64,000 nucleotides of DNA, taken from a virus. Taxonomy: Duplodnaviria > Caudoviricetes. Both the position numbers and the translations under genes were made by a program. The stretch lies in the IMG/VR virus record IMGVR_UViG_3300025732_000016. One strand, 5' to 3'. The notes beneath the pieces are model-generated. The model did not search any database. It saw only the letters and a program-made list of their open reading frames with translations, and was not told where the DNA came from. Below, piece by piece: positions 34,967-57,165 of this stretch; within the stretch, counting starts at the first letter, position 1, and the number at the start of each line of letters is the position of its first letter.

Positions 34967-35296
34967 TCACTCGGTGGAGTAGAGTTCAAATTTCCGGGCC
35001 TGGAGCTTCGGGTTCGTGCCCATCTTCTTCTTGTGGAGCTTCATCACCTCATTGCGGGCCCAGAACTTCGCGCTCGTCTCGTCGCTGAAGAAGCGCATGG
35101 GAGTGTCGCCCTCTCTGTCCTCGGTGGTGATCTTCACGTACCAGCCTCCCTGGGAGGGCGCAGGGCTCACATCGGCGTGGATGCCGTCCATGTGACGCCA
35201 ATCCTGCATGACATCCTCAGCGGGTGGGCTGCGCATGTTTCGACCGAGCTCTTCCCGGATGATGTCCCTGAGAATTCGAAGCGTGTCTTTCTTCAT
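34967..35296 (-). CDS. Hypothetical protein with LRxIIREEL leader
   Basis: 'LRILRDIIREELG'; ATAGTTA lies just upstream. Confidence 0.6.
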   Translation of the reverse strand: MKKDTLRILRDIIREELGRNMRSPPAEDVMQDWRHMDGIHADVSPAPSQGGWYVKITTEDREGDTPMRFFSDETSAKFWARNEVMKLHKKKMGTNPKLQARKFELYSTE

Positions 35297-35308
35297 CTCA
35301 TTAACTAT

Positions 35309-36103
35309 TCAGCGCTTCCTCTCACCGTCACGAAGCGCTTCACAAGCCTGCCAGAAGATCTCCTCGTCCCTCTCCACGCAGACCCACTTTCGACCGAGGT
35401 TCCTTGCCGCCCAAGCTGTCGTCATGGAGCCGGCAAAGGGATCGAAGACCCAGTCGCCGGGATTGGTGTTCGTCTCGATCGGTATCTCCATCACTCTCAG
35501 CGGCTTCTGTGTCGGGTGGACCTTCCCCTGCATGATCTCGGTGACGTCCATCCAGACGTTGGTCCGCCGGTAGAACTCTGACTTGCAAACGTAAGTCTTC
35601 TTACCTGGTTTCGGGGTATATCCCGGGTACCCCCGTTTCTCTGAGAGTAACGGAATGTTGAAGGTAATAGGTTTCCTTATGTCACCCTTCACGAGGTACA
35701 GGAGGTCTTCCCGTGTTTGGAGATAGTTGTGCTTCACTCCGTAGGCCCTCTTCTTGGACCAAGTGATGATGTTGGACATCCGCCAAGGGGTCTCGGACTC
35801 GAGGCGTGAGACATACTCGAAGAGTGGTCGGAAACCGGGTTTGCCGTACCCACCCCACACGTACATTGCGCCACCGTCGACAACCAGCTCGCTGAAGCGG
35901 TTTGACCAACTGATCATCCAGTCCGCGAATGACTTCTGGTCCCCGTCCCACTTGTCCCAGTCCTCGCTGACAAGGTTCCCGTAGGGCGGGTCTGTCGCAA
36001 CGAGCTTCAGGGGTCCACAGGTTCTCCTGACAAAGTCGACCACCTCATCCGAGGCGCAGTCACCCTGAATGGCGTACCCGTCAGGAAATTCGTGTACTAG
36101 CAT
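35309..36103 (-). CDS. DNA N6-adenine/N4-cytosine methyltransferase (beta class order)
   Basis: 'QGDC', 'TDPPY', 'HPTQKP', 'VFDPFAGS.TT', 'VERDE'. Confidence 0.92.
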   Translation of the reverse strand: MLVHEFPDGYAIQGDCASDEVVDFVRRTCGPLKLVATDPPYGNLVSEDWDKWDGDQKSFADWMISWSNRFSELVVDGGAMYVWGGYGKPGFRPLFEYVSRLESETPWRMSNIITWSKKRAYGVKHNYLQTREDLLYLVKGDIRKPITFNIPLLSEKRGYPGYTPKPGKKTYVCKSEFYRRTNVWMDVTEIMQGKVHPTQKPLRVMEIPIETNTNPGDWVFDPFAGSMTTAWAARNLGRKWVCVERDEEIFWQACEALRDGERKR

Positions 36104-36112
36104 CTTAAATGA

Positions 36113-36150
36113 GTAAACCTCCCGAGGCCTGTGTAACCTGGGAGGTTTAC
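36113..36150 (-). terminator. Hairpin downstream of Hsp20
   Basis: GTAAACCTCCC / GGGAGGTTTAC perfect 11-bp inverted repeat. Confidence 0.6.
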
Positions 36151-36165
36151 GACTAGCTTGGTGAG

Positions 36166-36546
36166 CTACTCTACGGAGATGACCCGCTTTGTCGTCTTCT
36201 GAACGGGAACCTCAACGTAGAGAATGCCAGCATCGTAACGTGCCGAGATGCCCTCCTGCGTGACATTCTCACCGAGGCTCCAGGAGCGGAAGTAGGTGGA
36301 CTTCGTGCCGTTCACCTCACGAGTTCCGGTGACGGTGAGGTAGTCATTCTCGGTGGAGACCTCGATGTCAGAGCGACTGAGGCCCGGCATCTCCACGGCA
36401 ATGGAGTAGCCCTTGTCGTTCTCGTTGATCTGTGCACGGGTCTGTACGGCCGTCTTCGTGGTGCCACGATTGCTTCGATCGTCGAGGAACGTGTCGAGGA
36501 AGGTGTCGAAGCTGGCGTGGGGATTGCGGGTCATGAGGCTGAACAT
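36166..36546 (-). CDS. Small heat-shock protein (Hsp20/alpha-crystallin)
   Basis: 'VEMPGLSRSDIEV', 'FRSWSL', 'ISARYDAGILYV.VP'. ATG at 36546 with AAGGAG SD. Confidence 0.92.
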   Translation of the reverse strand: MFSLMTRNPHASFDTFLDTFLDDRSNRGTTKTAVQTRAQINENDKGYSIAVEMPGLSRSDIEVSTENDYLTVTGTREVNGTKSTYFRSWSLGENVTQEGISARYDAGILYVEVPVQKTTKRVISVE

Positions 36547-36602
36547 GCTGTTTTCTCCTTGTTTCTGGTTGACCGGAGGAACCATTCCTCCATGATCTAA
36601 AG

Positions 36603-36866
36603 TTAAACACCGTTCTTGGAGAGAACACCCTTTTTCTTCACTTTCTTCTCAATTCTTGTGACCCACTTTGACCAGTCCTCCCTCTCATACTCTTCCTTCG
36701 TGCAAACACAGTGCTCGTGAAAGACTCCGATGAATCCGAGCGGGCACTCTGGGACTCCAGCGAGGTAGAGGCGGCGCTCATCGTCAGGGTGAACAGTTCC
36801 CTCGAAACCACCGGAAGTGGGCTTGGTCACTGTCACCCTGACGATGGGTCCGGCGTACGTCCTCAC
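36603..36866 (-). CDS. Hypothetical protein (start uncertain)
   Basis: The frame carries 'VGDLVYVRTYAG...'. The nearest in-frame start is GTG at 36866. Confidence 0.4.
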   Translation of the reverse strand: MRTYAGPIVRVTVTKPTSGGFEGTVHPDDERRLYLAGVPECPLGFIGVFHEHCVCTKEEYEREDWSKWVTRIEKKVKKKGVLSKNGV

Positions 36867-38074: not shown

Positions 38075-38485
38075 ATGTCTTCAAACTGGCCGAAGCCAAC
38101 TCACAACTACGTTCCCGAGTACCAGCAGTCGGGCATCCCATACGTCACAAGCTCTGCAGCGAACGAGGTTGGAGCGACGGCCATCCAAGTCTCGTTCCCC
38201 TACGTGACAAGGTGGGTGCAGGTCTTCAACACCGATGGAGTTGCAGGTGACACAATGAGAGTGGGCTTCACGCAAAATGGTGTGAACTCGATTGAATCTG
38301 CAAATTACTTCATCCTGAGCGGTAGCCAGTCCACCGACAGGCTGGAGCTCAAGTGCACGGGACTGTGGTTCCTGAAGCACGGTGCAAACCCGGCGAGCTT
38401 CAGCGTCGTAGCAGGCCTCACGAACGTTCCTGCAGCGGGCTTCCCGATCCTCTCAGGCTCCAACGAGGTCGCCGGAGTCGGTTAA
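38075..38485 (+). CDS. Hypothetical beta-rich protein (possibly virion)
   Basis: 'VPEYQQSGIPYVTSS', 'FPYVTRW', 'N.F.LSGS'. GAGGAG SD and ATAGTTA upstream. Confidence 0.65.
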   Translation: MSSNWPKPTHNYVPEYQQSGIPYVTSSAANEVGATAIQVSFPYVTRWVQVFNTDGVAGDTMRVGFTQNGVNSIESANYFILSGSQSTDRLELKCTGLWFLKHGANPASFSVVAGLTNVPAAGFPILSGSNEVAGVG

Positions 38486-40949: not shown

Positions 40950-41316
40950 TGGTGGACCCGAGGGGAGTCGAACCCCTGTCCGAAGCATTATCATCCTTCC
41001 GAGATACGTGGCCTGCCGGAAGCTCACCGGCGAGTGTCGGAACCTTTGGTCCCCGTCACGGTGTCCTGTCTATCTTCGTTCCCCGACCGTCCACCGATCC
41101 GTCGGTTCACTGCGGGTCTGAAACTCACCCGGAAGGATTCGACCATTCTCCTTCCGAACGCCACGGGGTCTAGATGCCCCGGGACTTCAATCAGGCCGCG
41201 AGGGCCTCGCTGAAGTGGTCAGTGTTGTTGGCACTTACTTGCTTGGTCCGATGCGGGAGACCACCCCTGCCACGCCCTTCAGGAATCCGACACCCCGTCG
41301 AAGCCAGTACGGGCCC
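40950..41316 (-). ncRNA. ssrA: tmRNA; tag peptide ANNTDHFSEALAA (41191..41232)
   Basis: 5' GGGCCCG pairs with 3' CGGGUCC-A-CCA, including the G3:U70 Ala determinant. T-arm GGGG-TTCGACT-CCCC. Internal reading frame ends in ALAA*. Confidence 0.95.
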
Positions 41317-41421
41317 ATGAAATGATTGCGGCTTTGACCCAGAGCCGCGAACTGGCCGACCTACGATTCGAGCAGGATTGCTGTCAGGATACCTGCGGTT
41401 ACGATCCCTGATCAGGGGCGA

Positions 41422-41709
41422 TTAGGCCGGAGGAGTCTCGGCAGTGTCTCCGCCCGTGTCCTCGGTCCCGGTGTCGCTGGTGCCCGTGTCCGAGCCAGTG
41501 TCGACCGGGTCGGTGGCAGTGTCACCGGTGTCAGCCCCCGTGTCAACGGGGTCGATTGCAGTGTCAGCGGTATCAGCGGTGTCGCCGGTATCGACCGGAG
41601 TTCCCGTGTCGTCGCCGCACTCGACAGCGGTGTCCTCCTTCACCTCCTCATCAGTAGAGCATGCGAAGAGGAGGAAGGGGAGAGTGAGGAACAGAACTAC
41701 GAAACGCAT
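41422..41709 (-). CDS. Lipoprotein with Asp-Thr-Gly (DTG) repeats
   Basis: Signal 'MRFVVLFLTLPFLLFAC' (lipobox), then 'DTGDTADT/PVDTG' repeats. Confidence 0.8.
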   Translation of the reverse strand: MRFVVLFLTLPFLLFACSTDEEVKEDTAVECGDDTGTPVDTGDTADTADTAIDPVDTGADTGDTATDPVDTGSDTGTSDTGTEDTGGDTAETPPA

Positions 41710-41746
41710 TATTTTCTCCTTGTGTTGGAAAGGCTAAGTATGGGGA

Positions 41747-41833
41747 CGGAGACGGCAGGATTTGAACCTGCGACCAGCTTTCGCCGGTGATCCCTTAGCA
41801 AGGGATTGGTTTGAGCCGCTCACCCACGTCTCC
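41747..41833 (-). tRNA. tRNA-Ser(GCT), no encoded CCA
   Basis: Acceptor GGAGACG/CGTCTCC; anticodon arm ATCCC-TTGCTAA-GGGAT; long variable arm. Confidence 0.92.
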
Positions 41834-41841
41834 AAAGTAAA

Positions 41842-41930
41842 TGGCGGAAGGAGTGAGATTCGAACTCACGGTGGTGTTTACCCACGGCGGTTTTCAAGAC
41901 CGCTGCCTTAAACCACTCGGCCATCCTTCC
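41842..41930 (-). tRNA. tRNA-Ser(TGA)
   Basis: GCGGT-CTTGAAA-ACCGC; long variable arm; CCA end. Confidence 0.95.
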
Positions 41931-41934
41931 ATAA

Positions 41935-42009
41935 TGGAGCCCGAAGTCGGGATTGAACCGACGACCTGCTGCTTACAAGGCAGCTGCTCTACCACTGAGC
42001 TATTCGGGC
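41935..42009 (-). tRNA. tRNA-Thr(TGT)
   Basis: GCTGC-CTTGTAA-GCAGC; CCA end. Confidence 0.95.
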
Positions 42010-42034
42010 ATTGGTTCCTGTTAGGAACATTGTT

Positions 42035-42063
42035 AATGTAGTCACACCGTCAAAGGTGTACAC
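42035..42063 (-). promoter_or_regulatory. Sigma70-like promoter for the Thr-Ser-Ser tRNA run
   Basis: GTGTAC-N17-TACATT. Confidence 0.5.
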
Positions 42064-42082
42064 ATTGCTCTCAACTTCTTTC

Positions 42083-42205
42083 GGTTCACCAGTTGCTCTC
42101 TGTTGAACCCGGGTCCATGGTAAGGTATATCCTAATCACCTAAACCCGAGTAACACAGAGTATCACAGGGTTCAACGGGTGTCATCGTGGTTTCGGTGTG
42201 GAACC
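42083..42205 (-). ncRNA. Candidate structured ncRNA (family unassigned)
   Basis: Nested helices GGTTC(C)AC/GTGAACC, GTTGAACCC/GGGTTCAAC, GTGATAC/GTGTTAC and GGGTTTA/TGGACCC. The G-U pairs favour the minus strand. Confidence 0.45.
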
Positions 42206-42206
42206 T

Positions 42207-43301
42207 TCAAGCCAACCTCACAAGTCTGACCCAGTTTGCGTTGATCGCACCGAGTCCGATGACTTCCTTCTCCTGTGCGAAGAAGTTAACCTCTTCCATC
42301 TCAACGTCGTACAGGCCCTCGGCATCGAGAAACTTCCCAGAGTTCTCTCCTGAGCTCGCTGCAAAGATGACCGAGTATGTGTTGCTTTCCCACTGGCTAC
42401 GACGACCCAATGAGAAACCGTCAGCGACCTCAATGTCAGATGACCAAGAGGAAGAGAACCTGTCACCCGTGGGTGTGATCTCGAAATTGCCCCGCAGCTC
42501 CTGCTTCCCGCCGTCTGGGTCCAGCTCAGTGATGTCCACTCCCATCCTCTCGAGCTCATCTAGCGTGAGGGACATCCCGCGGAAGTATGTTCCGGGCGGA
42601 GCTTCCCTGAAGACGTCCGTGTAGAGTCCATCCCTGATGAATCCCATGATAAGGTTGGCCTGCTGCCTTGTGAGCGGCCTGTTCCCCTCAAAGTGGTTGA
42701 TGATGGACCGGAGGAGGGCAGACTCAACAGGCGTGTTCCTCTCCATCGGAGGACGCTTCTTGGCAGCCTGGCGCTGGGGTGAGAATGCGTACTTCCCAAG
42801 GGGCGAGCCAATGGGAGCCGTGGGCTCATAGGAGGCGGCATACTCAGCCTCCTCTCGCTCTGCCCCATCCAGCTCGGCAATCCGGCTCATCCTGAGAATC
42901 TCCTTCGACTGGCGCCTCATCTCCTTTCCGATTCTCTCGATGGCTCGTGAGACCCTGAGGTCCCTCCTGTCATCGTTATCCACGAACTTGACGAGCTGCC
43001 TGTAGACACCATCGAGGAACTTTCCACCAGGGTCGAATCCCATGACGCTCTCGAAGGGGATGTCGGGAGACTCTTCCCTGCCGTACTCATACGTGAACCC
43101 GGGAATTGCCTTCTGGAAGATCTCGACGTACTCTCCGTATGTCGGCCACCTCCCACTGATGTCCTTGAAGTCGCTTCGCAAGAAGTATCGCCAGAATTCG
43201 AAGACACCGTGGATGGAGTCTCCACCTGGGTGCTGGGACTTCGCTTCGGCGAGGAGGGTCTCGCGGATGAGATGTCGAAGCGTAGACTCAGTGATTCGCA
43301 T
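42207..43301 (-). CDS. Putative ADP-ribosyltransferase (R-S-E clade) with MRITES leader
   Basis: C-terminal 'TYFRGM' (R), 'FSSSWS' (S-x-S), 'QEKEV' (E-x-E). Confidence 0.55.
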   Translation of the reverse strand: MRITESTLRHLIRETLLAEAKSQHPGGDSIHGVFEFWRYFLRSDFKDISGRWPTYGEYVEIFQKAIPGFTYEYGREESPDIPFESVMGFDPGGKFLDGVYRQLVKFVDNDDRRDLRVSRAIERIGKEMRRQSKEILRMSRIAELDGAEREEAEYAASYEPTAPIGSPLGKYAFSPQRQAAKKRPPMERNTPVESALLRSIINHFEGNRPLTRQQANLIMGFIRDGLYTDVFREAPPGTYFRGMSLTLDELERMGVDITELDPDGGKQELRGNFEITPTGDRFSSSWSSDIEVADGFSLGRRSQWESNTYSVIFAASSGENSGKFLDAEGLYDVEMEEVNFFAQEKEVIGLGAINANWVRLVRLA

Positions 43302-43305
43302 GATA

Positions 43306-43905
43306 CTAACTATTCGGCCTCACGCCACTTCGCAGGACAATCTCGCAGATGTGGTCGAGCCTCTCGATGTGCTCGTACGCCGACCATGGGTCACCCGCCA
43401 CCGAGCACACCCCGTGGTTCGCCTGACCCACGACATCGAAGGCGAGCTTCCCGTTCCCGTCCAACATCGCGGAGGCAGTCGCACGTGCCAACTCAGGTGA
43501 TGTGGCAGGCAGGACCGGGACTGTCGGGCCCACCCTCGTGTACCGGCTCACCTCAGGGAACTCACTTGCGATCCTCTGCAGGTCCCAGCCTGCGTAGACA
43601 GCAGCGACAATGTGGGTCGGATGGACATGGACGACTGCACGGGTGGAGCTGTTACCCAGCTGGAGGAGACGGTGCATCTCCAGTTCACCGGATGGGCTTG
43701 AGTCCTTCGGCACGTCAAGCGTCCCGTCGAAGCCGAACCTCACCTTGACGACGTGTTCAGGATGGATGATGGTCTTACGCCAGCCGGAGGGTGTGATGTA
43801 GAGTGTCTGAGAACCTCTCTTTCGCAGCGAGATGTTACCGTCCCTCGTAGTTATCCATCCCTTGTCGTAGCATCTCCTCATCACATCACCGATAGCAGTG
43901 AGCAT
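43306..43905 (-). CDS. Class II aldolase/adducin family protein
   Basis: 'DGNISLR', 'ITPSG', 'SGELEMH', 'VVHVHP', 'NHGV'. Confidence 0.88.
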   Translation of the reverse strand: MLTAIGDVMRRCYDKGWITTRDGNISLRKRGSQTLYITPSGWRKTIIHPEHVVKVRFGFDGTLDVPKDSSPSGELEMHRLLQLGNSSTRAVVHVHPTHIVAAVYAGWDLQRIASEFPEVSRYTRVGPTVPVLPATSPELARATASAMLDGNGKLAFDVVGQANHGVCSVAGDPWSAYEHIERLDHICEIVLRSGVRPNS

Positions 43906-46293: not shown

Positions 46294-46701
46294 CTACTTC
46301 CCTGCCGGCTTCACTCTCAGGATCTGGTCCTCGGTCCTATAGCCGACGGGTCCTGAAGGGAAGAAGCGACGCTGCATTGCGTCCCAATCGAAAGTCCTTT
46401 CGTTACCACTGTCACCCTTGAATTTCAGGTAGCTCTGGTAAGCCTCGCCGCTGAGACCCTCGCGGCCTGCTCCGAAGAACTTCGTCATGAGACCGAGACC
46501 AGACTTCTCGTCCTCACCGGCCTTTGAGACGAGCCAGTCAATGAAGGTCCAGGTTCCTTCCATCCCATTGATCTCATACTTTGCGCCCTTCTTCAGGACT
46601 TTTGCAAAATTCTTCGCATCAAGCTCGACAAATCCCTCCGCCGCCTCACGAAGCAGCTCTTCACGGATGACCTGACGTAGACGTGACTCGGTGATTCTCA
46701 T
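46294..46701 (-). CDS. Hypothetical protein with MRITES leader
   Basis: 'MRITESRLRQVIREELLREAA'. Confidence 0.7.
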   Translation of the reverse strand: MRITESRLRQVIREELLREAAEGFVELDAKNFAKVLKKGAKYEINGMEGTWTFIDWLVSKAGEDEKSGLGLMTKFFGAGREGLSGEAYQSYLKFKGDSGNERTFDWDAMQRRFFPSGPVGYRTEDQILRVKPAGK

Positions 46702-46754
46702 TGCGGTAACCCCATTCTGCTCACTATCTATTCGATGAGCAGCAGACTTTATGA

Positions 46755-48555: not shown

Positions 48556-48559
48556 AGTG

Positions 48560-48647: not shown

Positions 48648-48651
48648 AAAG

Positions 48652-48728: not shown

Positions 48729-48782
48729 AAGTTTTATCCGTCTTTCCGGACCGCCAGACTGGTTATCTCACAATCATTGAAG

Positions 48783-48858: not shown

Positions 48859-48920
48859 GTAAGGGGCAGAGATCTTGTTGAGCAGATTTATTGGCATCCA
48901 CGACCGGACCAGCATGGTAG

Positions 48921-48949
48921 AATATAAATCAGGGAACCAGATTGTTCAA
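48921..48949 (-). promoter_or_regulatory. Sigma70-like promoter for the Ile-Arg-Tyr-Lys tRNAs
   Basis: TTGAAC-N17-TATATT. Confidence 0.55.
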
Positions 48950-49529: not shown

Positions 49530-49546
49530 TGCTATGGGACTAAGTA

Positions 49547-49623
49547 TGGCTCCCGATCCCTGATTTGAACAGGGGACCCACGGATTAACAGTCCGTTGCT
49601 CTAACCAACTGAGCTAATCGGGA
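49547..49623 (-). tRNA. tRNA-Asn(GTT)
   Basis: ACGGA-CTGTTAA-TCCGT; CCA end. Confidence 0.95.
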
Positions 49624-49629
49624 ATGAAG

Positions 49630-49703
49630 TGGAGCGGGCACCGGGATTCGAACCCGGTTATCCAGCTTGGAAGGCTGGTGCACAACCCATATGCCATGCC
49701 CGC
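49630..49703 (-). tRNA. tRNA-Gly(TCC)
   Basis: CCAGC-CTTCCAA-GCTGG; CCA end. Confidence 0.93.
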
Positions 49704-49712
49704 GATTTGAAA

Positions 49713-49807
49713 GAACATGGAGACCCGGAGCTTGTACAGCGTCGGCCAACCCGGTTCGGCTGTGCTCCCCACTCACATGGGATACTGTACACCCGCCGTC
49801 CATGTTC
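49713..49807 (-). ncRNA. Candidate structured ncRNA between tRNA-Arg and tRNA-Gly
   Basis: GAACATGGA/TCCATGTTC encloses TGTACAG/CTGTACA and a CCCAT-GTGA-GTGGG GNRA hairpin. Possible GGAGC/GCTCC pseudoknot. Confidence 0.5.
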
Positions 49808-49811
49808 AAAG

Positions 49812-49888
49812 TGGCGTCCACGACAGGATTCGAACCTGTGACCTATCGCTTAGGAAGCGATTGCTCTATCCAGCTGAGCTACGAGGAC
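49812..49888 (-). tRNA. tRNA-Arg(CCT)
   Basis: ATCGC-TTCCTAA-GCGAT; one acceptor mismatch; CCA end. Confidence 0.92.
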
Positions 49889-49926
49889 TTGTTCCGTTGA
49901 TTGGTTTGGTTCCAACCAACATGCGT

Positions 49927-49955
49927 AATATAATTTACCTGTGAAAACTGGACAA
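49927..49955 (-). promoter_or_regulatory. Sigma70-like promoter for the Arg-ncRNA-Gly-Asn run
   Basis: TTGTCC-N17-TATATT. Confidence 0.55.
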
Positions 49956-49963
49956 CTTTTCCT

Positions 49964-50230
49964 TCACTTATTTTCTCTCGGGATCAAGTGATCCTCGGTG
50001 AACCAGAGATTGCGCCCACCCACGTAGACGAGCCACATGGTGAAGCGACCGCCCGTGTCCTTCTCTGGACCGTCAATCACGAGGCCCACCTCGCCGGGCT
50101 GTGGGAAGTACCCCCGACCCGGCATGATCCTGTCGGTGAGGTCCCTCGAGACGAGGCCCTCTGCGAATACGAGGTCCACTGAGGTTTCGATGGGGCAGAA
50201 AGAGACGAGGGCTCCAGTCTTGATGCTCAC
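49964..50230 (-). CDS. Hypothetical protein, SH3-like
   Basis: 'IKTGALV...GEVGLVI...WLVYV'. GTGA-coupled start. Confidence 0.55.
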   Translation of the reverse strand: MSIKTGALVSFCPIETSVDLVFAEGLVSRDLTDRIMPGRGYFPQPGEVGLVIDGPEKDTGGRFTMWLVYVGGRNLWFTEDHLIPRENK

Positions 50231-50646
50231 TTTCTTTTCTCGTCGCAAGGGATGCACAGGGTCTTCACCCAGCCCCCTCGAATGGGCTTACCGGGACTGC
50301 CGCACTGTTCACAAGTCCTCACGGACATCGCCTCGGCCATCTGGATGATTCCCCTCACGTAGTCGTCAGAGTTGTCCACGTAGAAGCGGAGTCCCCCGAA
50401 CTTCTCCTTCACCTGCGCAGCCTTCGTCTGGAACTGCTCCTCGAACTCGGTGGGAGTTAGGTGGCGCTTTGCCCTGTGGTGGTTGAGGTGGTTCTGCACG
50501 CTTGAGCACAGGCAGTCGATGATGTTGTACCAGCCATCGCCCACCGAGATCCCGTAGCTGACGACCTCGTTCTCACCGTACGCGTTCGTTCGGGTGAAGA
50601 TTTCAGGGTACTTCTCAATGAGCTTGTTCTCGAGTTCTGGTGACAC
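50227..50646 (-). CDS. Conserved phage hypothetical protein
   Basis: 'GDGWYNII', 'QVKEKFGGLRFY', 'S.RTCE.CG', 'TLC..C'. Confidence 0.75.
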   Translation of the reverse strand: MSPELENKLIEKYPEIFTRTNAYGENEVVSYGISVGDGWYNIIDCLCSSVQNHLNHHRAKRHLTPTEFEEQFQTKAAQVKEKFGGLRFYVDNSDDYVRGIIQMAEAMSVRTCEQCGSPGKPIRGGWVKTLCIPCDEKRK

Positions 50647-50981
50647 TAGCTCTCCTTCGGTTTAGAGATCTCTTCAACGTACCCGGGGTAGAACCCAGTG
50701 CCCTCTTTCAGGTGTCGAACGAGATTTTGCGGGCCATAACCCTCGTCATCGCAGTGGGACCCCCAGTGCTCGACGATCTCCTCGTGGGCTGCGAGCATCA
50801 CGGTCCGGAGACGAAGGTTCTCCTGCGCAAGTCGAGTGACCTCGTTCTGTAGCGCAATCACCTTGCTGGGCTCACTCACCCACTGCGCAAACTGCCTGAT
50901 GACGCCCTTCTCGGATTGGAGGAGCTTCTTGATGTCCTCCTCGTCAATGTGGTGCAGCCACTTGGGAAGCGCTTCACTCAT
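50646..50981 (-). CDS. Hypothetical protein (coiled coil)
   Basis: Coupled ORF. Confidence 0.55.
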   Translation of the reverse strand: MSEALPKWLHHIDEEDIKKLLQSEKGVIRQFAQWVSEPSKVIALQNEVTRLAQENLRLRTVMLAAHEEIVEHWGSHCDDEGYGPQNLVRHLKEGTGFYPGYVEEISKPKES

Positions 50982-51309
50982 CTCTCTTCTCCTTCTTCAA
51001 CTTGAGACTCTCTAACCATCCATTGAAAGCTTCGGGATCCCAGTTGTCCTTCTTGTGGTCGAACGAAGGGTCTTGGCCCCACTGCGAGCTCGTCCATCCC
51101 TCGACAATCTTTCGCCAGAGCGTGACATCAATTCGAAGGAGCAGGCTCGGAAGCTTGCCTTCTCCCCGCCGCCAGTCTACTCTGTCAGTATCGAGAGACG
51201 CGCCCCATCCCTCACCGTCGAGCTGGAGGTAGACGTTGTCACTCTCAAAGCACTCCTGGTAGAGGTGAAAGTCTTTCTGGTCGTAGGCGATGGTGCAACG
51301 GGTGCTCAT
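50974..51309 (-). CDS. Hypothetical protein
   Basis: Coupled ORF, GGAG SD. Confidence 0.55.
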   Translation of the reverse strand: MSTRCTIAYDQKDFHLYQECFESDNVYLQLDGEGWGASLDTDRVDWRRGEGKLPSLLLRIDVTLWRKIVEGWTSSQWGQDPSFDHKKDNWDPEAFNGWLESLKLKKEKRDE

Positions 51310-51380
51310 TAGCGCTCCAATAATTGATTGTTTCCAATCACTCGACAGTGTTCAACGTCTCGAAAAGGATACATTAAGGC

Positions 51381-52115
51381 ATGCGCATTGGAATCTTCGG
51401 CGGCGGATTCAAGCCGTTCACTTCAGGTCACTTCTCGAAGCTTGCTCTCGCGTCTGCAGAGAACGATGAGGTCCTCCTCTTCTACGGCATCGCCGAGAGG
51501 AAGAAGGGCTCAGACTACCTCTACACGAAGGAGATGGCAGAACAGGTCTTCGAGATCGCGAAGAGTGCAATCGAAAGAGAGATGCCCAACGTCAATGTCA
51601 TCAAGGCGAAACCGACTCCCATCGTCATGGCTTTCGAGGCGATACAGACGTTTGCGGGAGTTCTCGACGCTCCCAGGTTCTTTCGCTACTCCGACTACGG
51701 AATCGACGTGAACAGCATCGACGAGGTGACTCTCTACGGCGACCAGGAGACGGTGGGAGAGTATCTGGCTTATGCCGATGACCCTGTGAAGGGACCGAGG
51801 TACTACGGCACGACTCTACAGGACGGGACCCTCCATTTCGACACGGGTATGGCGGATGGCGATGATGCGAGAATCATCAACGCAGTCCAGTCCTTCCACC
51901 CGGGTTGCAGTCGAGAAGAGGTGAGGGCAAGAAACCTTGTCCGAGGCTCAGAGGTTCGGGCTTCCATCGCATCCCGCAACCCAGAGGCGATCACTCGCTT
52001 CCTCCCACCCATCTACAGCCCTGAGGAGAAGGCGGCGGTGATAGACATCCTCTACAGGGGACTCTGCGAGTCCACCCTTCGCAAGACAATCAGAACCATG
52101 ATACTGGTGGGATGA
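51381..52115 (+). CDS. HUP-fold (cytidylyltransferase/NMNAT-like) nucleotidyltransferase
   Basis: 'GIFGGGFKPFTSGH' (HIGH-like), and C-terminal 'RGSEVRA.I......RFLP' (SxT.IR-like). Confidence 0.75.
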   Translation: MRIGIFGGGFKPFTSGHFSKLALASAENDEVLLFYGIAERKKGSDYLYTKEMAEQVFEIAKSAIEREMPNVNVIKAKPTPIVMAFEAIQTFAGVLDAPRFFRYSDYGIDVNSIDEVTLYGDQETVGEYLAYADDPVKGPRYYGTTLQDGTLHFDTGMADGDDARIINAVQSFHPGCSREEVRARNLVRGSEVRASIASRNPEAITRFLPPIYSPEEKAAVIDILYRGLCESTLRKTIRTMILVG

Positions 52116-53389
52116 TGATCAGACAGCTTATCCGTGAGATGCTCATGCTGGAGAACGGTCCCGAGGCCCACATCCTCAACTTCTATGAGGACCTCGACAT
52201 GCCCCTCTCCGAGTTCAAGGAGGCCATCAGGGCCCTCCTCGATGCCCAGGTGGAGGACGTCGAGGAGAAGATGGACGGGCAGAATCTCACCTTCACCGTG
52301 AGGAACGGCGAGGTGGAGACGTTCTCCAAGGGAGCCTCCTGGGCATCCGTCCAGCGCGGCGGAAAGAAGATCGCCGACTACGAGGCCCAGTACGCTGACC
52401 GTCCGCAGGTGAGGGACGCCTTCAAGAGGGCGTACGCATCCCTCCAGGCCGCGGCAGATGTCGATCCGGCCCTCACCTCCCGGCTCTTCAGGGACGGCGG
52501 AGTGGTGGTGGAGTCCCTCATGATGCTCCCCGAGAACCCCAACACCATCGTCTACGACAGGCCCACCATCCGATTCGTGAGGGCCTACCCGATGGACCCG
52601 GCGCTCGGTGGACAGGTGGACCAGGAGGCGTACAGACAGTTCCTCGCTTCAGCTTCCTCGCTGGACGTCGCCGTCCCGATGGGTGAGGTTCCCATCCTGA
52701 AACTGAAGAAGGTCCTCAATTCTGACCAGGTCGCAGCCGAACTTGAGACAGACCTCGATGCGCTCATGGCCGAGGCCGGTGTCAACGACTCGTCCACCAT
52801 GGGTGATCTCATTGTCGGACTCGTGAAGACCCGCCTCGAGTCCGATGGGATGAGTCCTGATGTCGCGACAAAGGTCGCCATCCGTCTCGGTCGCGGTGAG
52901 AAGGCGGCGTTCTCCGCGAAGGACGCGAAGGCGGTGGGACCCGGCGTCTGGGAGAAGGTCCAGGGAATGGAGTCCGGCCCATACGTCGACGAGGCCATCA
53001 TCCCCATCGAGAGGATCCTCCAGAAGCTCGCCGTCCAGGTCTTCCGCAACCTGGAGTTCGTCCTCTCCTCCAACCGCACCGAGTCAGGTGACGCTCTTCG
53101 ATCCTTCGTCCGGCAGACCCGAGACGCAGTGAGGGGCGGGAGGCTCATCGCCGACCCATCCCAGACCGAGTCCATCAGGGTTGCACTCGAGAGGATCGGT
53201 GACGAGGCAGCATTCGAGAAGGCGGTTGAGGGAATCGTCTTCCGGTGGAAGGGAAAGACCCGGAAGCTCACCGGACTCTTCACGCCCATCAACAAGCTCC
53301 GCGGATTCTTCGCCTATGGTAAGACTCCAGCGAGGATATCGCAGAATGAGTCTCGAAAGAGATACTTACCATTCGGAAGGGTCGGATAA
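52112..53389 (+). CDS. ATP-grasp/ligase-like nucleotidyltransferase (RNA-ligase-like motifs)
   Basis: 'EEKMDGQN' (KxDG, motif I), 'EGIVF' (motif IV) and 'KLTG.F' (motif V-like). IRQLIRE leader. Confidence 0.55.
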   Translation: MMIRQLIREMLMLENGPEAHILNFYEDLDMPLSEFKEAIRALLDAQVEDVEEKMDGQNLTFTVRNGEVETFSKGASWASVQRGGKKIADYEAQYADRPQVRDAFKRAYASLQAAADVDPALTSRLFRDGGVVVESLMMLPENPNTIVYDRPTIRFVRAYPMDPALGGQVDQEAYRQFLASASSLDVAVPMGEVPILKLKKVLNSDQVAAELETDLDALMAEAGVNDSSTMGDLIVGLVKTRLESDGMSPDVATKVAIRLGRGEKAAFSAKDAKAVGPGVWEKVQGMESGPYVDEAIIPIERILQKLAVQVFRNLEFVLSSNRTESGDALRSFVRQTRDAVRGGRLIADPSQTESIRVALERIGDEAAFEKAVEGIVFRWKGKTRKLTGLFTPINKLRGFFAYGKTPARISQNESRKRYLPFGRVG

Positions 53390-53440
53390 TGAGAATCACA
53401 GAATCACAGCTTAGAAAGTACGGATCAGGCGGGCACTGAG

Positions 53441-54247
53441 ATGGGAGGAGAGGCATTCAAGGGTCCCGACGGAGAGCCACTAGCCACGGGCATAAAGCAG
53501 GCAGAGGTTGGTCCGACTCTCGACTCTCTTCTTCGAGATGTCCTCCGCCCCGTGGGCATCGATTCCTACGTCCCGCTGGGCTCGACGGGCAAGAAGCCGA
53601 TCTCTAGTGACCTTGACATCGCAGTCGGACCTGTCCCGATGGATGACCCGAAGGCTCTGAAGGCTCTGAAGGACGCGCTACTGGCGAACATCCAGGCGGT
53701 TGTCGGACCTGACAACGCGAAGCTCGTCGGTCAGAACATCGCGATACTTCAGCCCATTGCTGGCTCTCCCGATCGTTTCGTGCAGGTCGATCTCATGCTG
53801 TCGGGTGACCCACAGAAGACGGGCTGGCTGATGTCTGGTACGGGTTCGGGCGTGAAGGGAGTCTATCGCAACCTCATGCTAGCATACATCGCGAAGCTCC
53901 GTTCTGAGGAGCAGCCTGGTACCAAGATCACCATCTCATACCCAGGCGGCATCCAGGTCGTCAAGGATGGGCAGACAGTGGTGCCGAGGACTGAGGACGC
54001 GGAAGCGATTGTCTCCACTCTCGGAATCCCTGCGAAGCCCTCAGAGATCAATACTTTTGAGGAACTAGTAACCATATTGGCAAGGGACCCGAGCATCTCT
54101 GGTAAGCTCGAGGGTTACGAGACATACATCGGAAGGTATCTCCAGGATCCGAAAACTGCAGTAGAGGCCCAAAAGTCGATTGCTGCCCTTAAAACAGCTC
54201 GCGGTCTCATGGAGACCGTGAGACTGCTGGTTCGCTCTCTCAGGTGA
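53441..54247 (+). CDS. Pol-beta-superfamily nucleotidyltransferase
   Basis: 'LGSTGKKPISSDLDIAV' (GS..DxD) and a third Asp in 'VQVDLM'. The leader appears frameshifted at 53389-53440. Confidence 0.72.
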   Translation: MGGEAFKGPDGEPLATGIKQAEVGPTLDSLLRDVLRPVGIDSYVPLGSTGKKPISSDLDIAVGPVPMDDPKALKALKDALLANIQAVVGPDNAKLVGQNIAILQPIAGSPDRFVQVDLMLSGDPQKTGWLMSGTGSGVKGVYRNLMLAYIAKLRSEEQPGTKITISYPGGIQVVKDGQTVVPRTEDAEAIVSTLGIPAKPSEINTFEELVTILARDPSISGKLEGYETYIGRYLQDPKTAVEAQKSIAALKTARGLMETVRLLVRSLR

Positions 54248-54758
54248 TTCGGATTCCCTTCACAGACATCTGAAGGGTCGTAAACCACGGATCCTTCACT
54301 TCCCGGTCGAGCTCATCAACTGCGATGGCGACCGGGATTGCTGTCATCTCCCACTGCTCAATGCGCTCGCCCTCGTGATCACTCACGACCATCTTCACCT
54401 TGCGCTCAAGGGGCTTTTGGAGCCATGAGAAGACGCCAGCGTTCATGCCAGGCTTAGCTCTGACCTCAACGACCATCTGTCCCGAAGAGTTCTCTCCGGG
54501 TGTGAAGACCGAGAACTTCACGCCGCCGGACTCGAGGGGCTGCATGCCTTCGATGGAGATCTCCCACTTCGGAGACTCATCGACCTCGGGCTCCTCGCCT
54601 TCTCCGCCAGCTCCCAGAGCCCCTGCAAGACCGACCTTCTGCATGAGCTCCTCCATCGTGACAAATTCTACGGGAGGAGTCGCGACCTCACTCGGAGCAT
54701 CAGCGACAGAAGTCTCAACAAGAGCATCTTCCTTCTTCTTACGACGAAATCTCATCAA
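54240..54758 (-). CDS. Hypothetical protein; C-terminus resembles T4 gp19-like tail-tube fold
   Basis: 'F.WL....R.V.M.V.D..G..IEQW.M...P.AI..DELD.....W..TLQMSV'. Confidence 0.45.
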   Translation of the reverse strand: MMRFRRKKKEDALVETSVADAPSEVATPPVEFVTMEELMQKVGLAGALGAGGEGEEPEVDESPKWEISIEGMQPLESGGVKFSVFTPGENSSGQMVVEVRAKPGMNAGVFSWLQKPLERKVKMVVSDHEGERIEQWEMTAIPVAIAVDELDREVKDPWFTTLQMSVKGIRIT

Positions 54759-54973
54759 GCGCCTGCCTTCTCTTCAGATTCAATAGACTCACGGATGACT
54801 TTCACGAACTCACGCTGTGCTCGTTCCTCATCCCACTCTGTCACTCCCCAAGCCTTCATGAGGATGCATTTCACATCCTCATCAAACTCGATGTTGATCT
54901 TTGCAGAGCCGTCGGGCTGCTCCTCAACGCTTGCCACCCTGATGGGAACCTGGAGCTGCTTTCTCTGTTTCAC
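54755..54973 (-). CDS. Small hypothetical protein
   Basis: Coupled ORF; ATAGTTA upstream. Confidence 0.55.
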   Translation of the reverse strand: MKQRKQLQVPIRVASVEEQPDGSAKINIEFDEDVKCILMKAWGVTEWDEERAQREFVKVIRESIESEEKAGA

Positions 54974-55010
54974 GAAACCTCCGAGAATACTGTAACTATC
55001 ACCCTAAACT

Positions 55011-55808: not shown

Positions 55809-55811
55809 TCC

Positions 55812-55863
55812 ATTCCTCCTTACATTAAGACTATACCACACTTTTCAACAGATTGGAATAGGC
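55812..55863 (-). promoter_or_regulatory. 52-bp promoter/leader cassette, copy 1
   Basis: Gapless match to 59311..59362: GCCTATTCCAAT...TG(G/T)TAT...TAATGTAAGGAGGAAT. Confidence 0.75.
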
Positions 55864-55881
55864 CCGCGCAAAATAGTGATT

Positions 55882-55918
55882 AAAAGAGAACCGCCGAGCC
55901 AGTTACCCGACTCGGCGG
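55882..55918 (-). terminator. Intrinsic terminator
   Basis: CCGCCGAG/CTCGGCGG stem followed by TTCTCTTTT. Confidence 0.7.
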
Positions 55919-55941
55919 CTTGCGCTCTCCCGAGGAAGGGA

Positions 55942-56127
55942 TCAGTCGATGGCCTCCTTCGCGAGCTTGACGGAAAGCGCCGCGACAGCCTTCGCGATCT
56001 TCTTACCCTCTTCCTTCGTGATGTTCACCTTCCCATTCTCGTCCTTCTTCAGGGACTCTCCGATCAGCTTCGCGAGCTTCTCGAGTTCAGGTGCGAGCAC
56101 TATGAGCTCATCTGGTGTCAATGCCAT
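55942..56127 (-). CDS. Small hypothetical protein
   Basis: GAGGAGG SD; ATAGTTA upstream; terminator downstream. Confidence 0.65.
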   Translation of the reverse strand: MALTPDELIVLAPELEKLAKLIGESLKKDENGKVNITKEEGKKIAKAVAALSVKLAKEAID

Positions 56128-56208
56128 TTTGAAGTCCTCCTCTAGAGGCGGGGTTTCCGCGCTCTAAGGATAACTATCATCGAAGCCGCAGATATAGTTA
56201 CGATAGGA

Positions 56209-57165
56209 GTGCAAATGCATAGAAACGAAGCTGTGGTGAGGAGCCTTATTCGTGAATGGCTCATAATCGAACAGGCAGCTGATGACGGCGCGAGCGCAGG
56301 AGCTGAAGCTGCTGGAGAGCTCAGCGGACTTGGATCTTTGGAGAGCCAAGTTGATGCTGCTCTCGATAAGATTGAAGACAAGATAGAAGACAAGAGTGAA
56401 GCAGTTGTCGCTCTTGCTTTAGGGCTCGGTCTCTCGATCCCCACGCTCGGAAAGTGGGCCGCAAAGGCAATAGCTCTCATCGTCAAAGGTTACGTCAAGC
56501 TCGCATCGAAGTTCGGCAAACCTGAACAGTCTGGTGGGCTTGCGTGGGCTGCAAAAGTAGAGGCTGCGGGAGAATCCTTCTACGAGAAAGGTCATCACAT
56601 GATCGAAAGCTTCTATACAAAAATTGTGAAAGCCCTGTTTCTTCTTCTGTGCGCAATGGGAGACGTGGGAGGAATTGATGCTTACAAAGCTTACGCAGAC
56701 TCACCAGCGGGACAAGAAGCTTTCACAAAAGTAGCAAAGCTGATCGATCTTGCAGTAACGTGTATCCTCGCAGTCTATAGCGTCCAGGGGGCTATCGGAG
56801 CGATTCAGGCAGCTCACGCAGGACTCGCCGCGACCGAGGGCGTTCTTTCTGCTGCAAAGGGAGCGCACATAGGAGCTGCAGTCGCAGAGTCAATAGTAGA
56901 GGCTTCTAGAGCATTTGCAAGAGCATTTGCTGAAGCGGGTGTAGCCTCGGCCCTGATCTCGGACATCATGAAGAAAGCTTCATCTTTCTTCGAAGCCATC
57001 AAAGAGACGATTATGGGCGGCATCGAAGTCACTAAAAAGGCTGCTCAGGCTGCTGGACTCTCAGTTGCTCTCGCTGCAGGATCGGCAGTAGCCAGTGATG
57101 CTCCTGCCGACAGTGCTGCCTCTGCGCAGGACAGCGGAGTTGTTAGAGCTGATTCATCTCGTTGA
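56209..57165 (+). CDS. Ala-rich protein with several hydrophobic helices and an LIRE-type leader
   Basis: 'EAVVRSLIREWLIIEQ'; hydrophobic segments 'VVALALGLGLSIP' and 'LIDLAVTCILAVYSV'. Confidence 0.65.
   Translation: MQMHRNEAVVRSLIREWLIIEQAADDGASAGAEAAGELSGLGSLESQVDAALDKIEDKIEDKSEAVVALALGLGLSIPTLGKWAAKAIALIVKGYVKLASKFGKPEQSGGLAWAAKVEAAGESFYEKGHHMIESFYTKIVKALFLLLCAMGDVGGIDAYKAYADSPAGQEAFTKVAKLIDLAVTCILAVYSVQGAIGAIQAAHAGLAATEGVLSAAKGAHIGAAVAESIVEASRAFARAFAEAGVASALISDIMKKASSFFEAIKETIMGGIEVTKKAAQAAGLSVALAAGSAVASDAPADSAASAQDSGVVRADSSR

What the first reader, a model, noticed from the sequence alone, without database searches (positions are those of the whole stretch)
34967..57165. Shared N-terminal leader (MRITESxLRxxIRE..L.E) on unrelated proteins: a candidate capsid-targeting or ejection signal
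Seen: MRITESTLRHLIRETLLAE (43301, ART-like), MRITESRLRQVIREELLRE (46701), MRITESQLRKY/IRRAL (53389, pol-beta NTase, frameshifted), MIRQLIREMLMLE (ORF 52112, ligase-like), EAVVRSLIREWLIIE (56209, hydrophobic) and LRILRDIIREEL (35296). C-terminal echoes occur as LCESTLRKTIR (51381 gene) and LMETVRLLVR (53441 gene). The bodies are otherwise unrelated. Three of these genes have ATAGTTA upstream and a fourth has ATAGATA. Established: T4 internal proteins carry a short N-terminal capsid-targeting sequence removed after Glu by the prohead protease. Inference: this amphipathic helix sorts a cargo of enzymes into the head for injection. That would be an uncharacterised sorting system.
Basis: partly seen in the sequence, partly recalled or inferred. 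Interest (0 to 1): 0.85.

Follow-up and report, generated by a model that had tools for sequence, protein, structure and literature searches.

The report
Head-loading-like leader tag on phage proteins
An uncultured aquatic T4-like giant phage puts the same roughly 19-residue helical tag on the front of unrelated proteins; the tag ends in the cutting motif of the phage's own head protease, so it most likely loads them into the capsid as T4 does with its internal proteins, but no virion data exist.

Summary
The core observation is real. Three ORFs start with MRITESxLR (43301-, 46701-, 53389+). Three more N-termini (35296-, 52112+, 56215+) carry a diverged LRxxIRExLxxE core.

Two claims fail. The 53389 copy is a 16-codon stub, not a frameshifted NTase; it looks like the scar of a deleted cassette array. 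The C-terminal "echoes" are not statistically supported.

The tag is a widespread portable module:
- 627 protein clusters carry it in public metagenomes.
- It sits almost always at residue 1.
- In a sample of 128 tagged proteins, the bodies form 97 unlinked groups.
- It is conserved at the protein level, not the DNA level.

The window's own genome, and four of the five tag-bearing IMG/VR records tested (the fifth is a 38.7-kb fragment), encode a T4-type prohead protease (Peptidase_S77) and a gp23-type capsid. Its own genome also has a scaffold. The tag's distal LLRE / LLTE-A copies T4's known gp24 and gp23 cut sites. Two small proteins in the head-gene cluster have tag-like N-termini. The portal gene and the tagged genes share an ATAGTTA promoter-like motif. 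One cargo is an ADP-ribosyltransferase, like T4 Alt.

Best reading (about 0.6): a capsid-targeting, cleavable leader. That makes it a new variant of the T4 CTS principle, not a new kind of system. This scan has reported similar tags before, in other huge phages and in other windows of this genome. Packaging and cleavage remain untested.

The parts
42207..43301 (-). 364-aa protein. Leader is residues 1-19 (MRITESTLRHLIRETLLAE, nt 43245-43301). It is followed by a helical domain and a C-terminal ADP-ribosyltransferase domain (about residues 216-364).
   Evidence: The leader scores 39.3 bits. R241, S283-S285 and E344xE346 are invariant or nearly so in 22 homologues. The AF2 model has mean pLDDT 83.6, with the leader as a detached low-confidence helix. 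All top Foldseek and VIA matches are ART-superfamily folds, Z 6-8.3.
46294..46701 (-). 135-aa protein of unknown function with a full leader (MRITESRLRQVIREELLRE).
   Evidence: 39.7 bits. Homologues exist only in metagenomes. Two unrelated proteins share just the leader at 88% identity.
53389..53439 (+). Leader-only stub: a 16-codon mini-ORF (MRITESQLRKYGSGGH, then stop). It overlaps the ligase-like stop (TAATG) and ends one base before the NTase start.
   Evidence: In G005 four leader cassettes lie between the ligase-like gene and a similar stub. In L080 there is neither stub nor cassette.
53441..54247 (+). Pol-beta-type nucleotidyltransferase-like protein (GS...DxD) without a leader.
   Evidence: 58 homologues mostly start MGGEAFKG. 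There is no Pfam match.
52112..53389 (+). Ligase-like protein (KxDG) with a 14-residue leader-like N-terminal extension (MMIRQLIREMLMLE).
   Evidence: Core HMM 10.2 bits, the third best hit in the window. The G001 homologue lacks the extension. L079 has only MLFLE. PF09414 matches weakly, E 0.0021, below its cut-off.
56215..57165 (+). 316-aa Ala-rich protein with hydrophobic stretches and a diverged leader (RSLIREWLIIE at residues 9-19).
   Evidence: Fifth best core-HMM hit (6.5 bits, E 0.82). ATAGTTA lies 21 nt upstream, and AGGAG 5 nt before ATG 56215. No homologue in the five relatives.
34967..35296 (-). 109-aa protein with a short-form leader (LRILRDIIREELGR).
   Evidence: 13.3 bits, E 0.0035. 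Orthologues in G001 and G002 keep LLRxLIREEIGR. AATAGTTA lies 12 nt upstream.
51381..52115 (+). NMNAT-like (HIGH-type) protein whose C-terminus (ESTLRKTIR) was called an echo. This is not established as a tag.
   Evidence: 6.6 bits only. The tail is conserved in orthologues as ENTLRRAIR and ERVLRSTIR.
43307..43313 (-). ATAGTTA promoter-like motif, 12 nt before the ART gene start.
   Evidence: The same heptamer lies 19 nt before the portal gene of the same genome.
46725..46731 (-). ATAGATA promoter-like motif, 30 nt before the 135-aa gene start.
35302..35308 (-). ATAGTTA promoter-like motif, 12 nt before the 109-aa gene start.
56194..56200 (+). ATAGTTA promoter-like motif before the 316-aa gene.

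Best explanation
The leader is a capsid-targeting propeptide of a T4-like phage. It is an amphipathic helix of about 19 residues; the consensus is MRITESQLR(K/R)I(I/V)REE(L/I)LRE, and shorter forms keep LRxxIRExLxxE.

Inferred mechanism:
1. Late in infection, the leader docks the attached protein into the scaffolding core of the prohead. The small core proteins encoded between the protease and scaffold genes carry related N-terminal helices.
2. The Peptidase_S77 (gp21-type) prohead protease then cuts it off after Glu14 (I/V-R-E) or Glu19 (L-x-E).
3. The trimmed cargo stays in the head and enters the host with the DNA.

Known cargo bodies are an ADP-ribosyltransferase in this window, and GNAT, nucleotidyltransferase, HD and many unknown small proteins elsewhere.

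The leader's DNA also serves as the homology where cargo cassettes are gained and lost.

Shown here: the leader is portable, N-terminal and protein-level conserved; the T4-type head machinery is present; the leader matches known cut sites; the promoter-like motif is shared; cassettes turn over.

Inferred only: docking, cleavage, packaging and ejection.
For: 1. Position. 627 representative clusters match at E<=1e-3 among 1.84 billion proteins. Of the best 149, 132 have the motif at residue 1, and the internal ones shown begin with Met.
2. Portability. 128 bodies fall into 97 unlinked BLAST groups, and the median length is 120 aa. The window's bodies are unrelated to each other.
3. Selection acts on the peptide. 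Invariant residues are encoded with free third positions and with six-fold codon switches such as AGA/CGT/CGC and CTT/TTG.
4. Machinery. The window's own contig (100% identical overlap) encodes a T4-type portal, Peptidase_S77 (85 bits), a 609-aa scaffold and a Gp23-type capsid protein. All four large leader-bearing IMG/VR contigs have PF03420 and PF07068.
5. Cut motif. (L/I/V)xE sits at fixed positions: E14 in 129 of 138 leaders, and E19/21/22 in 95 of 138. A G/P/D-rich linker follows. The distal LLRE-(A/S) and LLTE-A equal T4 gp24 MAKINELLRE|S and gp23 FLTE|AEIGG (cleavage facts from PMC9958956). The phage's own capsid protein has ILKE-AN at about residue 61.
6. Head-cluster relatives. Two small proteins encoded between the protease and scaffold genes start MTRDDLKELVKECLLE and MAKTMTLTPALLRRIVLEE. 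Profile-profile comparison with the leader gives P=0.0045 and 2.5e-4, aligned N-terminus to N-terminus.
7. Promoter-like motif. ATAGTTA or ATAGATA lies 12-30 nt before four leader genes. It also lies 19 nt before the portal gene and 25 nt before the gene ahead of the terminase gene.
8. Cargo type. One cargo has the ART fold with R-S-ExE motifs, like T4 Alt, which is packaged and N-terminally trimmed by gp21 (PMC9958956). Other cargos hit GNAT, PolyA_pol, ART-PolyVal and HD.
9. Structure. AF2 models the leader as a separate helix (residues 5-18) with low confidence, not part of the body fold.
10. Turnover. Between the window and its closest relative G005, leader genes are swapped or absent at conserved flanks, and one indel junction lies inside the leader DNA.
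Against: - There is no cultured relative and no virion proteome. tblastn of leaders and of the ART against 50,697 phage records found nothing useful.
- The leader HMM gives no meaningful match to T4 gp67, gp68, gp21, gp22, gp23 or gp24 (best 2.4 bits, over 5 residues). By eye it does not resemble the T4 CTS.
- Similarity to the phage's own scaffold (P=0.096) and capsid protein is not significant.
- The matches to the head-cluster proteins are short, with modest P values.
- Only about a quarter of leader genes in relatives have the ATAGWWA motif. Many sit inside operons or have a different TATATTTA-like motif.
- A 425-aa ligase-like enzyme in a three-enzyme operon is an odd head cargo. Its 'leader' could be a recombination scar.
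Confidence: 0.6

Rival explanations
1. The helix is a general docking or oligomerisation tag for something other than the capsid. Candidates are a phage hub protein, a host target, or a multi-enzyme complex. It would work at either end of a protein and would not be cleaved.
For: Leader-like helices appear at the C-termini of the NMNAT-like and NTase proteins of one operon. Some NTase homologues end ESRLRQIIK. The ligase-like enzyme of the same operon has the helix at its N-terminus. The leader has a heptad-like hydrophobic face.
Against: The C-terminal matches are statistically weak: 6.6 bits or none. The strong family is almost exclusively at residue 1. This model does not predict fixed (L/I/V)xE motifs followed by a flexible linker, identity to T4 cut sites, tag-like N-termini in the head-gene cluster, or the portal-type upstream motif.
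Confidence: 0.15
2. The leader is kept mainly as a mobility and expression module. It would be a shared 5' end, with start region and homology arm, that lets small accessory genes move between intergenic junctions. It would have no sorting role for the protein.
For: Leader cassettes sit at different junctions of the same NMNAT-like / ligase-like / NTase operon in the window, G005, L079 and the P0183 contig; L080 has none at the only junction it covers, ligase-like to NTase. An indel junction lies within the leader DNA, and a leader-only stub remains. Tandem arrays are common.
Against: Conservation is at the amino-acid level, with synonymous and six-fold codon variation, which is poor for DNA homology. 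The peptide is conserved across 627 clusters from diverse samples. Mobility and sorting are not mutually exclusive; T-even internal-protein loci are also described as variable (from memory).
Confidence: 0.1
3. The shared N-terminus reflects one paralogous family whose bodies diverged beyond recognition, or chance similarity of Arg/Leu/Glu-rich helices.
For: Some leader proteins do form paralogue families, for example the ...TPxxAxExG(I/L)xF bodies. The weak window copies are individually not significant.
Against: Bodies include different known folds: ART, GNAT, PolyA_pol, HD and hexapeptide. The same enzyme occurs with and without the extension. The strong copies have E about 1e-11 in the window.
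Confidence: 0.04

Closest known systems
Phage T4 capsid targeting sequence (CTS) of the internal proteins, and the N-terminal propeptide of Alt, removed by prohead protease gp21 (Mullaney and Black 1996, as cited in PMC9958956 and PMC3012670)
   Same: A short N-terminal peptide on otherwise unrelated, dispensable proteins. The phage has a homologous gp20/gp21/gp22/gp23-type head assembly. The peptide ends in (L/I)xE. One cargo is an ADP-ribosyltransferase, like Alt. The loci are variable.
   Different: About 19 residues instead of about 10. No sequence similarity to the T4 CTS by eye, and none by HMM to the T4 head proteins tested. Far more cargo families (hundreds of clusters), including enzymes. 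Related helices also occur on the small core proteins, whereas the T4 CTS is reported as not shared by the other core proteins (PMC9958956). No experimental proof.
Propeptide-cleaved ejection proteins of giant phiKZ-like phages such as SPN3US (PMC7411985, PMC10052503)
   Same: Many head-internal proteins are processed by the prohead protease and ejected into the host.
   Different: Those phages reportedly use a different cleavage motif (from memory, not checked here), and no single shared portable leader is described. This phage is T4-like with an S77 protease.
Encapsulin cargo-loading peptides
   Same: A short terminal peptide addresses diverse enzymes to the inside of an HK97-fold shell.
   Different: They are usually C-terminal, bind the shell protein directly, are not cleaved, and involve no DNA or ejection (from memory).
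Earlier findings of this scan: CTS-like leaders in other huge phages (e1-5368290, e1-5354488, e1-4543595, e1-5355880 and others)
   Same: The same phenomenon: one leader on many unrelated proteins of uncultured large T4-like phages, read as a capsid-loading tag.
   Different: Those are other genomes, and in most cases apparently other leader sequences. I could not check whether any of them uses this MRITES leader.

Membership tests
T4-type capsid targeting / internal protein system | A short peptide at the extreme N-terminus, shared by otherwise unrelated proteins | tested here: met
   132 of the 149 best database hits lie at residue 1. The bodies form 97 unlinked groups out of 128. The window's bodies are unrelated.
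T4-type capsid targeting / internal protein system | The phage has a gp21-type prohead protease, a scaffolding core and a gp23-type capsid | tested here: met
   Own genome: Portal_T4, Peptidase_S77 (85 bits, cut-off 27), a 609-aa scaffold and Gp23. Four relatives have PF03420 and PF07068.
T4-type capsid targeting / internal protein system | The peptide ends at a protease site, (L/I)-x-Glu | tested here: met
   E14 in 129 of 138 leaders and E19/21/22 in 95 of 138. The distal LLRE and LLTE-A are identical to the T4 gp24 and gp23 sites read from the T4 record. This is sequence level only; cleavage itself is untested.
T4-type capsid targeting / internal protein system | Sequence homology to the T4 CTS or to T4 core proteins | tested here: not met
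   The leader HMMs score below 3 bits on T4 gp67, gp68, gp21, gp22, gp23 and gp24. The ip genes themselves were not fetched. By eye the T4 CTS (recalled from memory and from earlier notes) is not similar.
T4-type capsid targeting / internal protein system | Late expression together with the head genes | tested here: inconclusive
   A shared ATAG(T/A)TA motif lies before four leader genes, the portal gene and the gene ahead of the terminase gene. It is not shown to be a promoter, there are no transcript data, and many leader genes in relatives lack it.
T4-type capsid targeting / internal protein system | Proteins are found in virions, trimmed at the N-terminus, and ejected | not testable with these tools
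   No cultured relative.
R-S-E ADP-ribosyltransferases (cargo 42207-43301) | Arg, Ser-x-Ser and Glu-x-Glu motifs on an ART fold | tested here: met
   R241 (YFRGM), S283-S285 (SSSW) and E344xE346 (EKEVIGLG) are invariant or nearly so in 22 sequences. Foldseek's best hits (25 of its top 28) are ADP-ribosyltransferases, prob up to 1.0. All 50 rows of VIA-align (Z 5.8-8.3 on residues about 216-364) are ART-superfamily folds, including Tpt1/KptA and Arr. Z is middling and activity is untested.
T4 Alt / ModA / ModB family | Detectable sequence homology to T4 Alt | tested here: not met
   tblastn of the 364-aa protein against 50,697 phage records, T4 included, found no match at E<=0.1. It is an analogue, not an orthologue.
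Programmed frameshift joining leader and NTase | The same frame relation and an open overlap conserved in relatives | tested here: not met
   The NTase is in frame +1 after the stub in the window and in frame -1 in G005. L080 has no stub. NTase homologues start MGGEAFKG.

The most novel reading that the evidence does not exclude
The leader is a sequence-readable address label. Any gene captured behind it becomes head-packaged, injected cargo, and the same leader serves as the homology arm for cassette exchange. If so, aquatic T4-like giant phages carry a large, fast-turning-over arsenal of injected enzymes (ADP-ribosyltransferases, acetyltransferases, nucleotidyltransferases, HD hydrolases and hundreds of unknowns). 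That arsenal could then be listed from metagenomes alone.
Probability: 0.35. Interest if true: 0.75.

Novelty: new variant of a known kind. Interest (0 to 1): 0.6.

Why it matters
T4 loads only a handful of proteins by its CTS, and reviews still call the mechanism that places proteins in the scaffolding core mysterious (PMC9958956). If the reading is right, this longer and strongly conserved leader gives three things:
- A way to predict, from sequence alone, which proteins uncultured marine and freshwater giant phages deliver into their hosts at the first moment of infection. Such proteins are likely anti-defence and host-takeover factors.
- A larger natural set of leader, core-protein and protease triples for working out how docking works.
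- A candidate tag for loading foreign proteins into T4-like capsids.

It also shows how enzymes can acquire or lose the tag by recombination.

Tried and rejected
- No whole genome is held for the window. The JGI record could not be scanned as a whole, so I walked along the contig with five exact-protein look-ups.
- Megablast of 42000-54300 and tblastn of the leaders and the ART against cultured and deposited phages found nothing or only E about 5 noise.
- A full-text search for the motif strings gave only spurious hits.
- The profile of the ART family against PDB sequences gave nothing relevant.
- Pfam and PHROGs found nothing for most leader bodies or for the small head-cluster proteins.
- hhalign of the leader against the scaffold (P 0.096, best at scaffold residues 34-50, RIRKLVEKKLVRE) and against the capsid protein was not significant.
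- Complex prediction with the leader (residues 1-45 of the G001 ART orthologue) and the G001 scaffold (residues 1-130) gave no verdict: score 0.00, both chains poorly folded. This is evidence neither way.
- I rejected a programmed frameshift for the NTase.
- I rejected the idea that the NMNAT-like C-terminal echo is the scar of a deleted leader gene, because orthologues keep it.
- My first core-HMM run was circular: it contained the G005 ligase orthologue. I repeated it without that sequence.
- An earlier-findings look-up by sequence found nothing.


Full report
**What the window is.** The window carries 19 tRNA genes and a tmRNA gene between 40950 and 49888. It also holds glycan-synthesis genes, DNA methylases, a DNA ligase, an Hsp20, a lysozyme and other accessory genes. 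It has no near relative among deposited phages.

An exact-protein look-up found a 169-kb JGI metagenome contig whose sequence is 100% identical to window 1-12176. Walking along that contig reached the head-gene cluster of the same genome, about 37-47 kb left of the window. The gene order is: T4-type portal, a 282-aa protein, a Peptidase_S77 prohead protease (85 bits against a cut-off of 27), proteins of 150, 99, 167 and 185 aa, a 609-aa acidic scaffold, and a Gp23-type major capsid protein. So this is a large, uncultured, T4-like phage.

**The observation.** MRITES starts exactly three ORFs. A leader HMM built from relatives scores them 39.7 bits (46701-), 39.3 bits (43301-) and 24.6 bits (53389+) in a six-frame scan. 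The next hit is the N-terminus at 35296- (13.3 bits, E 0.0035).

A second HMM covers only the core LRxxIRExLxxE. It was trained on 25 sequences from other genomes and excluded the window and its direct orthologues. Its top five hits in the whole window are 43283, 46683, 52121, 35275 and 56239. Each lies within 12 residues of the start of a real ORF. About 1% of six-frame positions lie that close to a gene start, so the weak copies are probably genuine diverged leaders even though each alone is not significant.

The bodies share no detectable similarity.

**What does not hold.**
- The copy at 53389 is a 16-codon mini-ORF (MRITESQLRKYGSGGH, then stop). It overlaps the stop of the ligase-like gene and ends one base before the NTase ATG.
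- In the closest relative (G005, syntenic with window 38.7-64 kb, 72-93% DNA identity) the stub reads MRITESQLRKIVREEYR and ends TAATG. The NTase therefore sits in the other relative frame.
- Fifty-eight NTase homologues mostly start MGGEAFKG. One relative (L080) joins the ligase-like and NTase genes directly, with no stub.
- G005 has four leader cassettes between the ligase-like gene and its stub. L079 has cassettes at both junctions of the same three-enzyme operon. The window's stub is therefore best read as the scar of a lost cassette array. The alignment break lies inside the repeated leader DNA.
- The C-terminal 'echoes' score 6.6 bits or nothing. They are conserved tails of those enzymes in orthologues, so I do not count them.

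**How widespread the leader is.** A degenerate DNA pattern found 21 stretches of DNA in IMG/VR. A profile of 21 leaders then found 4-19 matches per related contig. It also found 627 representative clusters (50% identity level) at E<=1e-3 among 1.84 billion proteins.

Of the best 149 hits, 132 have the motif at residue 1. The internal cases shown begin with Met after another ORF body. The consensus is MRITESQLR(K/R/Q)I(I/V)REE(L/I/A)(L)(R)(E), followed by a Gly/Pro/Asp/Ala-rich stretch. Median protein length is 120 aa. After removal of the leader, 128 proteins fall into 97 unlinked BLAST groups.

Among 111 of them, Pfam recognises only a few bodies: GNAT acetyltransferases, a poly(A)-polymerase-type nucleotidyltransferase, ART-PolyVal, HD domains and hexapeptide transferases.

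Codon analysis of 23 distinct leaders shows invariant residues encoded with free third positions. Arg, Leu and Ser switch between their codon families. Selection therefore acts on the peptide, not on a DNA or RNA element.

**Link to the head machinery.**
- All four large leader-bearing contigs encode PF03420 and PF07068, as does the window's own genome.
- The leader carries (L/I/V)xE at fixed places: E14 in 129 of 138 leaders, and E19, E21 or E22 in 95 of 138.
[quoted passage not shown] Read from the T4 record, those sites are MAKINELLRE|S and FLTE|AEIGG. The leader's distal part is EELLRE-(A/S/G) or ETLLTE-A.
- The phage's own capsid protein has ILKE-AN at about residue 61.
- Two small proteins lie between the protease and scaffold genes, the place where T4 has core genes 67 and 68. 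They start MTRDDLKELVKECLLE and MAKTMTLTPALLRRIVLEE, and both are conserved in four relatives. Profile-profile comparison with the leader aligns N-terminus to N-terminus with P=0.0045 and P=2.5e-4. This is modest but in register.
- The scaffold's best match (RIRKLVEKKLVRE, residues 34-50) is not significant, P=0.096.
- ATAGTTA lies 19 nt before the portal start and 25 nt before the gene ahead of the terminase gene in the same genome. ATAGWWA precedes the portal, scaffold and 90-aa core genes in G001.
- Other lineages show a TATATTTA-like motif before leader genes, and many leader genes sit in arrays without any motif.

**The cargo at 42207-43301.** Twenty-five homologues were found, 21 of which were aligned with the query. 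Their leaders vary (MRITES..., MNMLLLRR..., MSKILRQ...), but L8 and R13 stay invariant and R9, E14 and E19 nearly so. The bodies keep R241 (YFRGM), S283-S285 (SSSW) and E344xE346.

AF2 gives mean pLDDT 83.6. The leader is a separate helix (residues 5-18) with pLDDT about 50. Foldseek's best PDB hits (25 of its top 28) are R-S-E ADP-ribosyltransferases, with probability up to 1.0 and best E 2.5e-3. VIA-align places residues about 216-364 on ART-superfamily folds only, Z 5.8-8.3. This Z range is middling, so the motif conservation carries much of the call.

T4 Alt is an ADP-ribosyltransferase that sits in the core, loses a small N-terminal peptide to gp21 and is injected (PMC9958956). This protein is an analogue of Alt, not an orthologue: tblastn found no match to any deposited phage.

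**How tags come and go.**
- At the tRNA-flanked locus 42207-43927 the window has the ART gene plus an aldolase gene. G005 has three other leader genes between the same flanks.
- The ligase-like enzyme has the 14-residue extension MMIRQLIREMLMLE in the window and G005. L079 has only MLFLE, and the G001 homologue has none.
- The 109-aa protein keeps its short-form leader in G001 and G002.

So leaders are gained, truncated and lost by recombination, and enzymes can pick them up.

**Mechanism and odds.** My best explanation, at about 0.6, is a capsid-targeting, protease-removable leader. It docks cargo into the scaffolding core next to core proteins that have related helices. It is then cut after E14 or E19, and the cargo leaves with the DNA. 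Every step after 'is present and fits' is inference.

The rivals are:
- a docking helix for a non-capsid partner (0.15);
- a mobility and expression module without a sorting role (0.10), which need not exclude the main reading;
- paralogy or chance (0.04).

One structure-based binding test (leader with the scaffold N-terminal region) gave no verdict.

**Novelty.** Full-text searches found the T4 CTS literature but nothing on this motif. This scan has already reported CTS-like leaders in other huge phages, and leader-like helices in other windows of this same genome. The phenomenon is therefore not new to the scan.

What this report adds:
- direct confirmation of the S77 protease and head-gene cluster in the window's own genome;
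- the identity of the leader's distal motif with T4's gp23 and gp24 cut sites;
- the size of the leader family;
- protein-level selection on the leader;
- the cassette dynamics;
- the ART cargo.

I rate it a new variant of a known kind, with interest 0.6.

Noticed in passing
L062:10365-12077 (G001, a relative): The prohead protease gene of relative G001 is split by an insertion of about 350 aa that matches LAGLIDADG_3 and, weakly, Intein_splicing. It looks like an intein inside the S77 protease. The window's own protease (207 aa) has none.
   Followed up: partly
window 38075-38485 (+): A 136-aa ORF (MSSNWPKPTHNYVPEYQQ...) with no Pfam or PHROG match has ATAGTTA 23 nt upstream. A protein with a near-identical N-terminus (homology judged by eye) lies inside the head-gene cluster of relative G003, between the protease and core genes (L071:7412-7816). 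It is a candidate virion protein.
   Followed up: partly
window 51381-54247 (+) and L079, L080, G005: A conserved three-gene operon (HIGH-type NMNAT-like, KxDG ligase-like, GS-DxD nucleotidyltransferase) sits in the tRNA-rich region and may act on RNA or NAD. Leader cassettes insert at its gene junctions in some relatives.
   Followed up: partly
P0228, P0230, P0233, P0234 (distant NTase homologues): Some NTase homologues carry a different N-terminal extension (MKLLFENWRKYL...). It ends in (L/I)xE directly before the conserved GG(E/N)AF. This looks like a second leader type with the same cut-site logic.
   Followed up: no
P0031, P0032, P0037, P0045, P0059, P0100, P0175: Some database proteins contain two leaders, one of them internal and starting with Met, with no stop between the units. 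They are either tandem fusions or merged gene calls.
   Followed up: no
window 40950-49888: A tmRNA gene (tag ANNTDHFSEALAA) and 19 tRNA genes lie in several clusters. Between them sit the leader genes, an HNH/DUF559 endonuclease, an NS-type endonuclease and a thioredoxin-like gene.
   Followed up: no
window 26201-30632 (-): Three ORFs whose N-termini resemble PrkA, SpoVR and YeaH (DUF444), by eye only and not tested here, lie in a phage; another finding of the scan has already noted them.
   Followed up: no
window 54993-54999 (-) and 54755-54973 (-): Another ATAGTTA lies 26 nt before a 72-codon ORF that has no leader. The motif is therefore not specific to leader genes.
   Followed up: no
L065 and L066 (both ends of G001): At least four paralogues (268-417 aa) start MTHLLRSLIRETLLLEEVYGAQ. 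This is a short-form leader on a multi-copy family near both contig ends.
   Followed up: no
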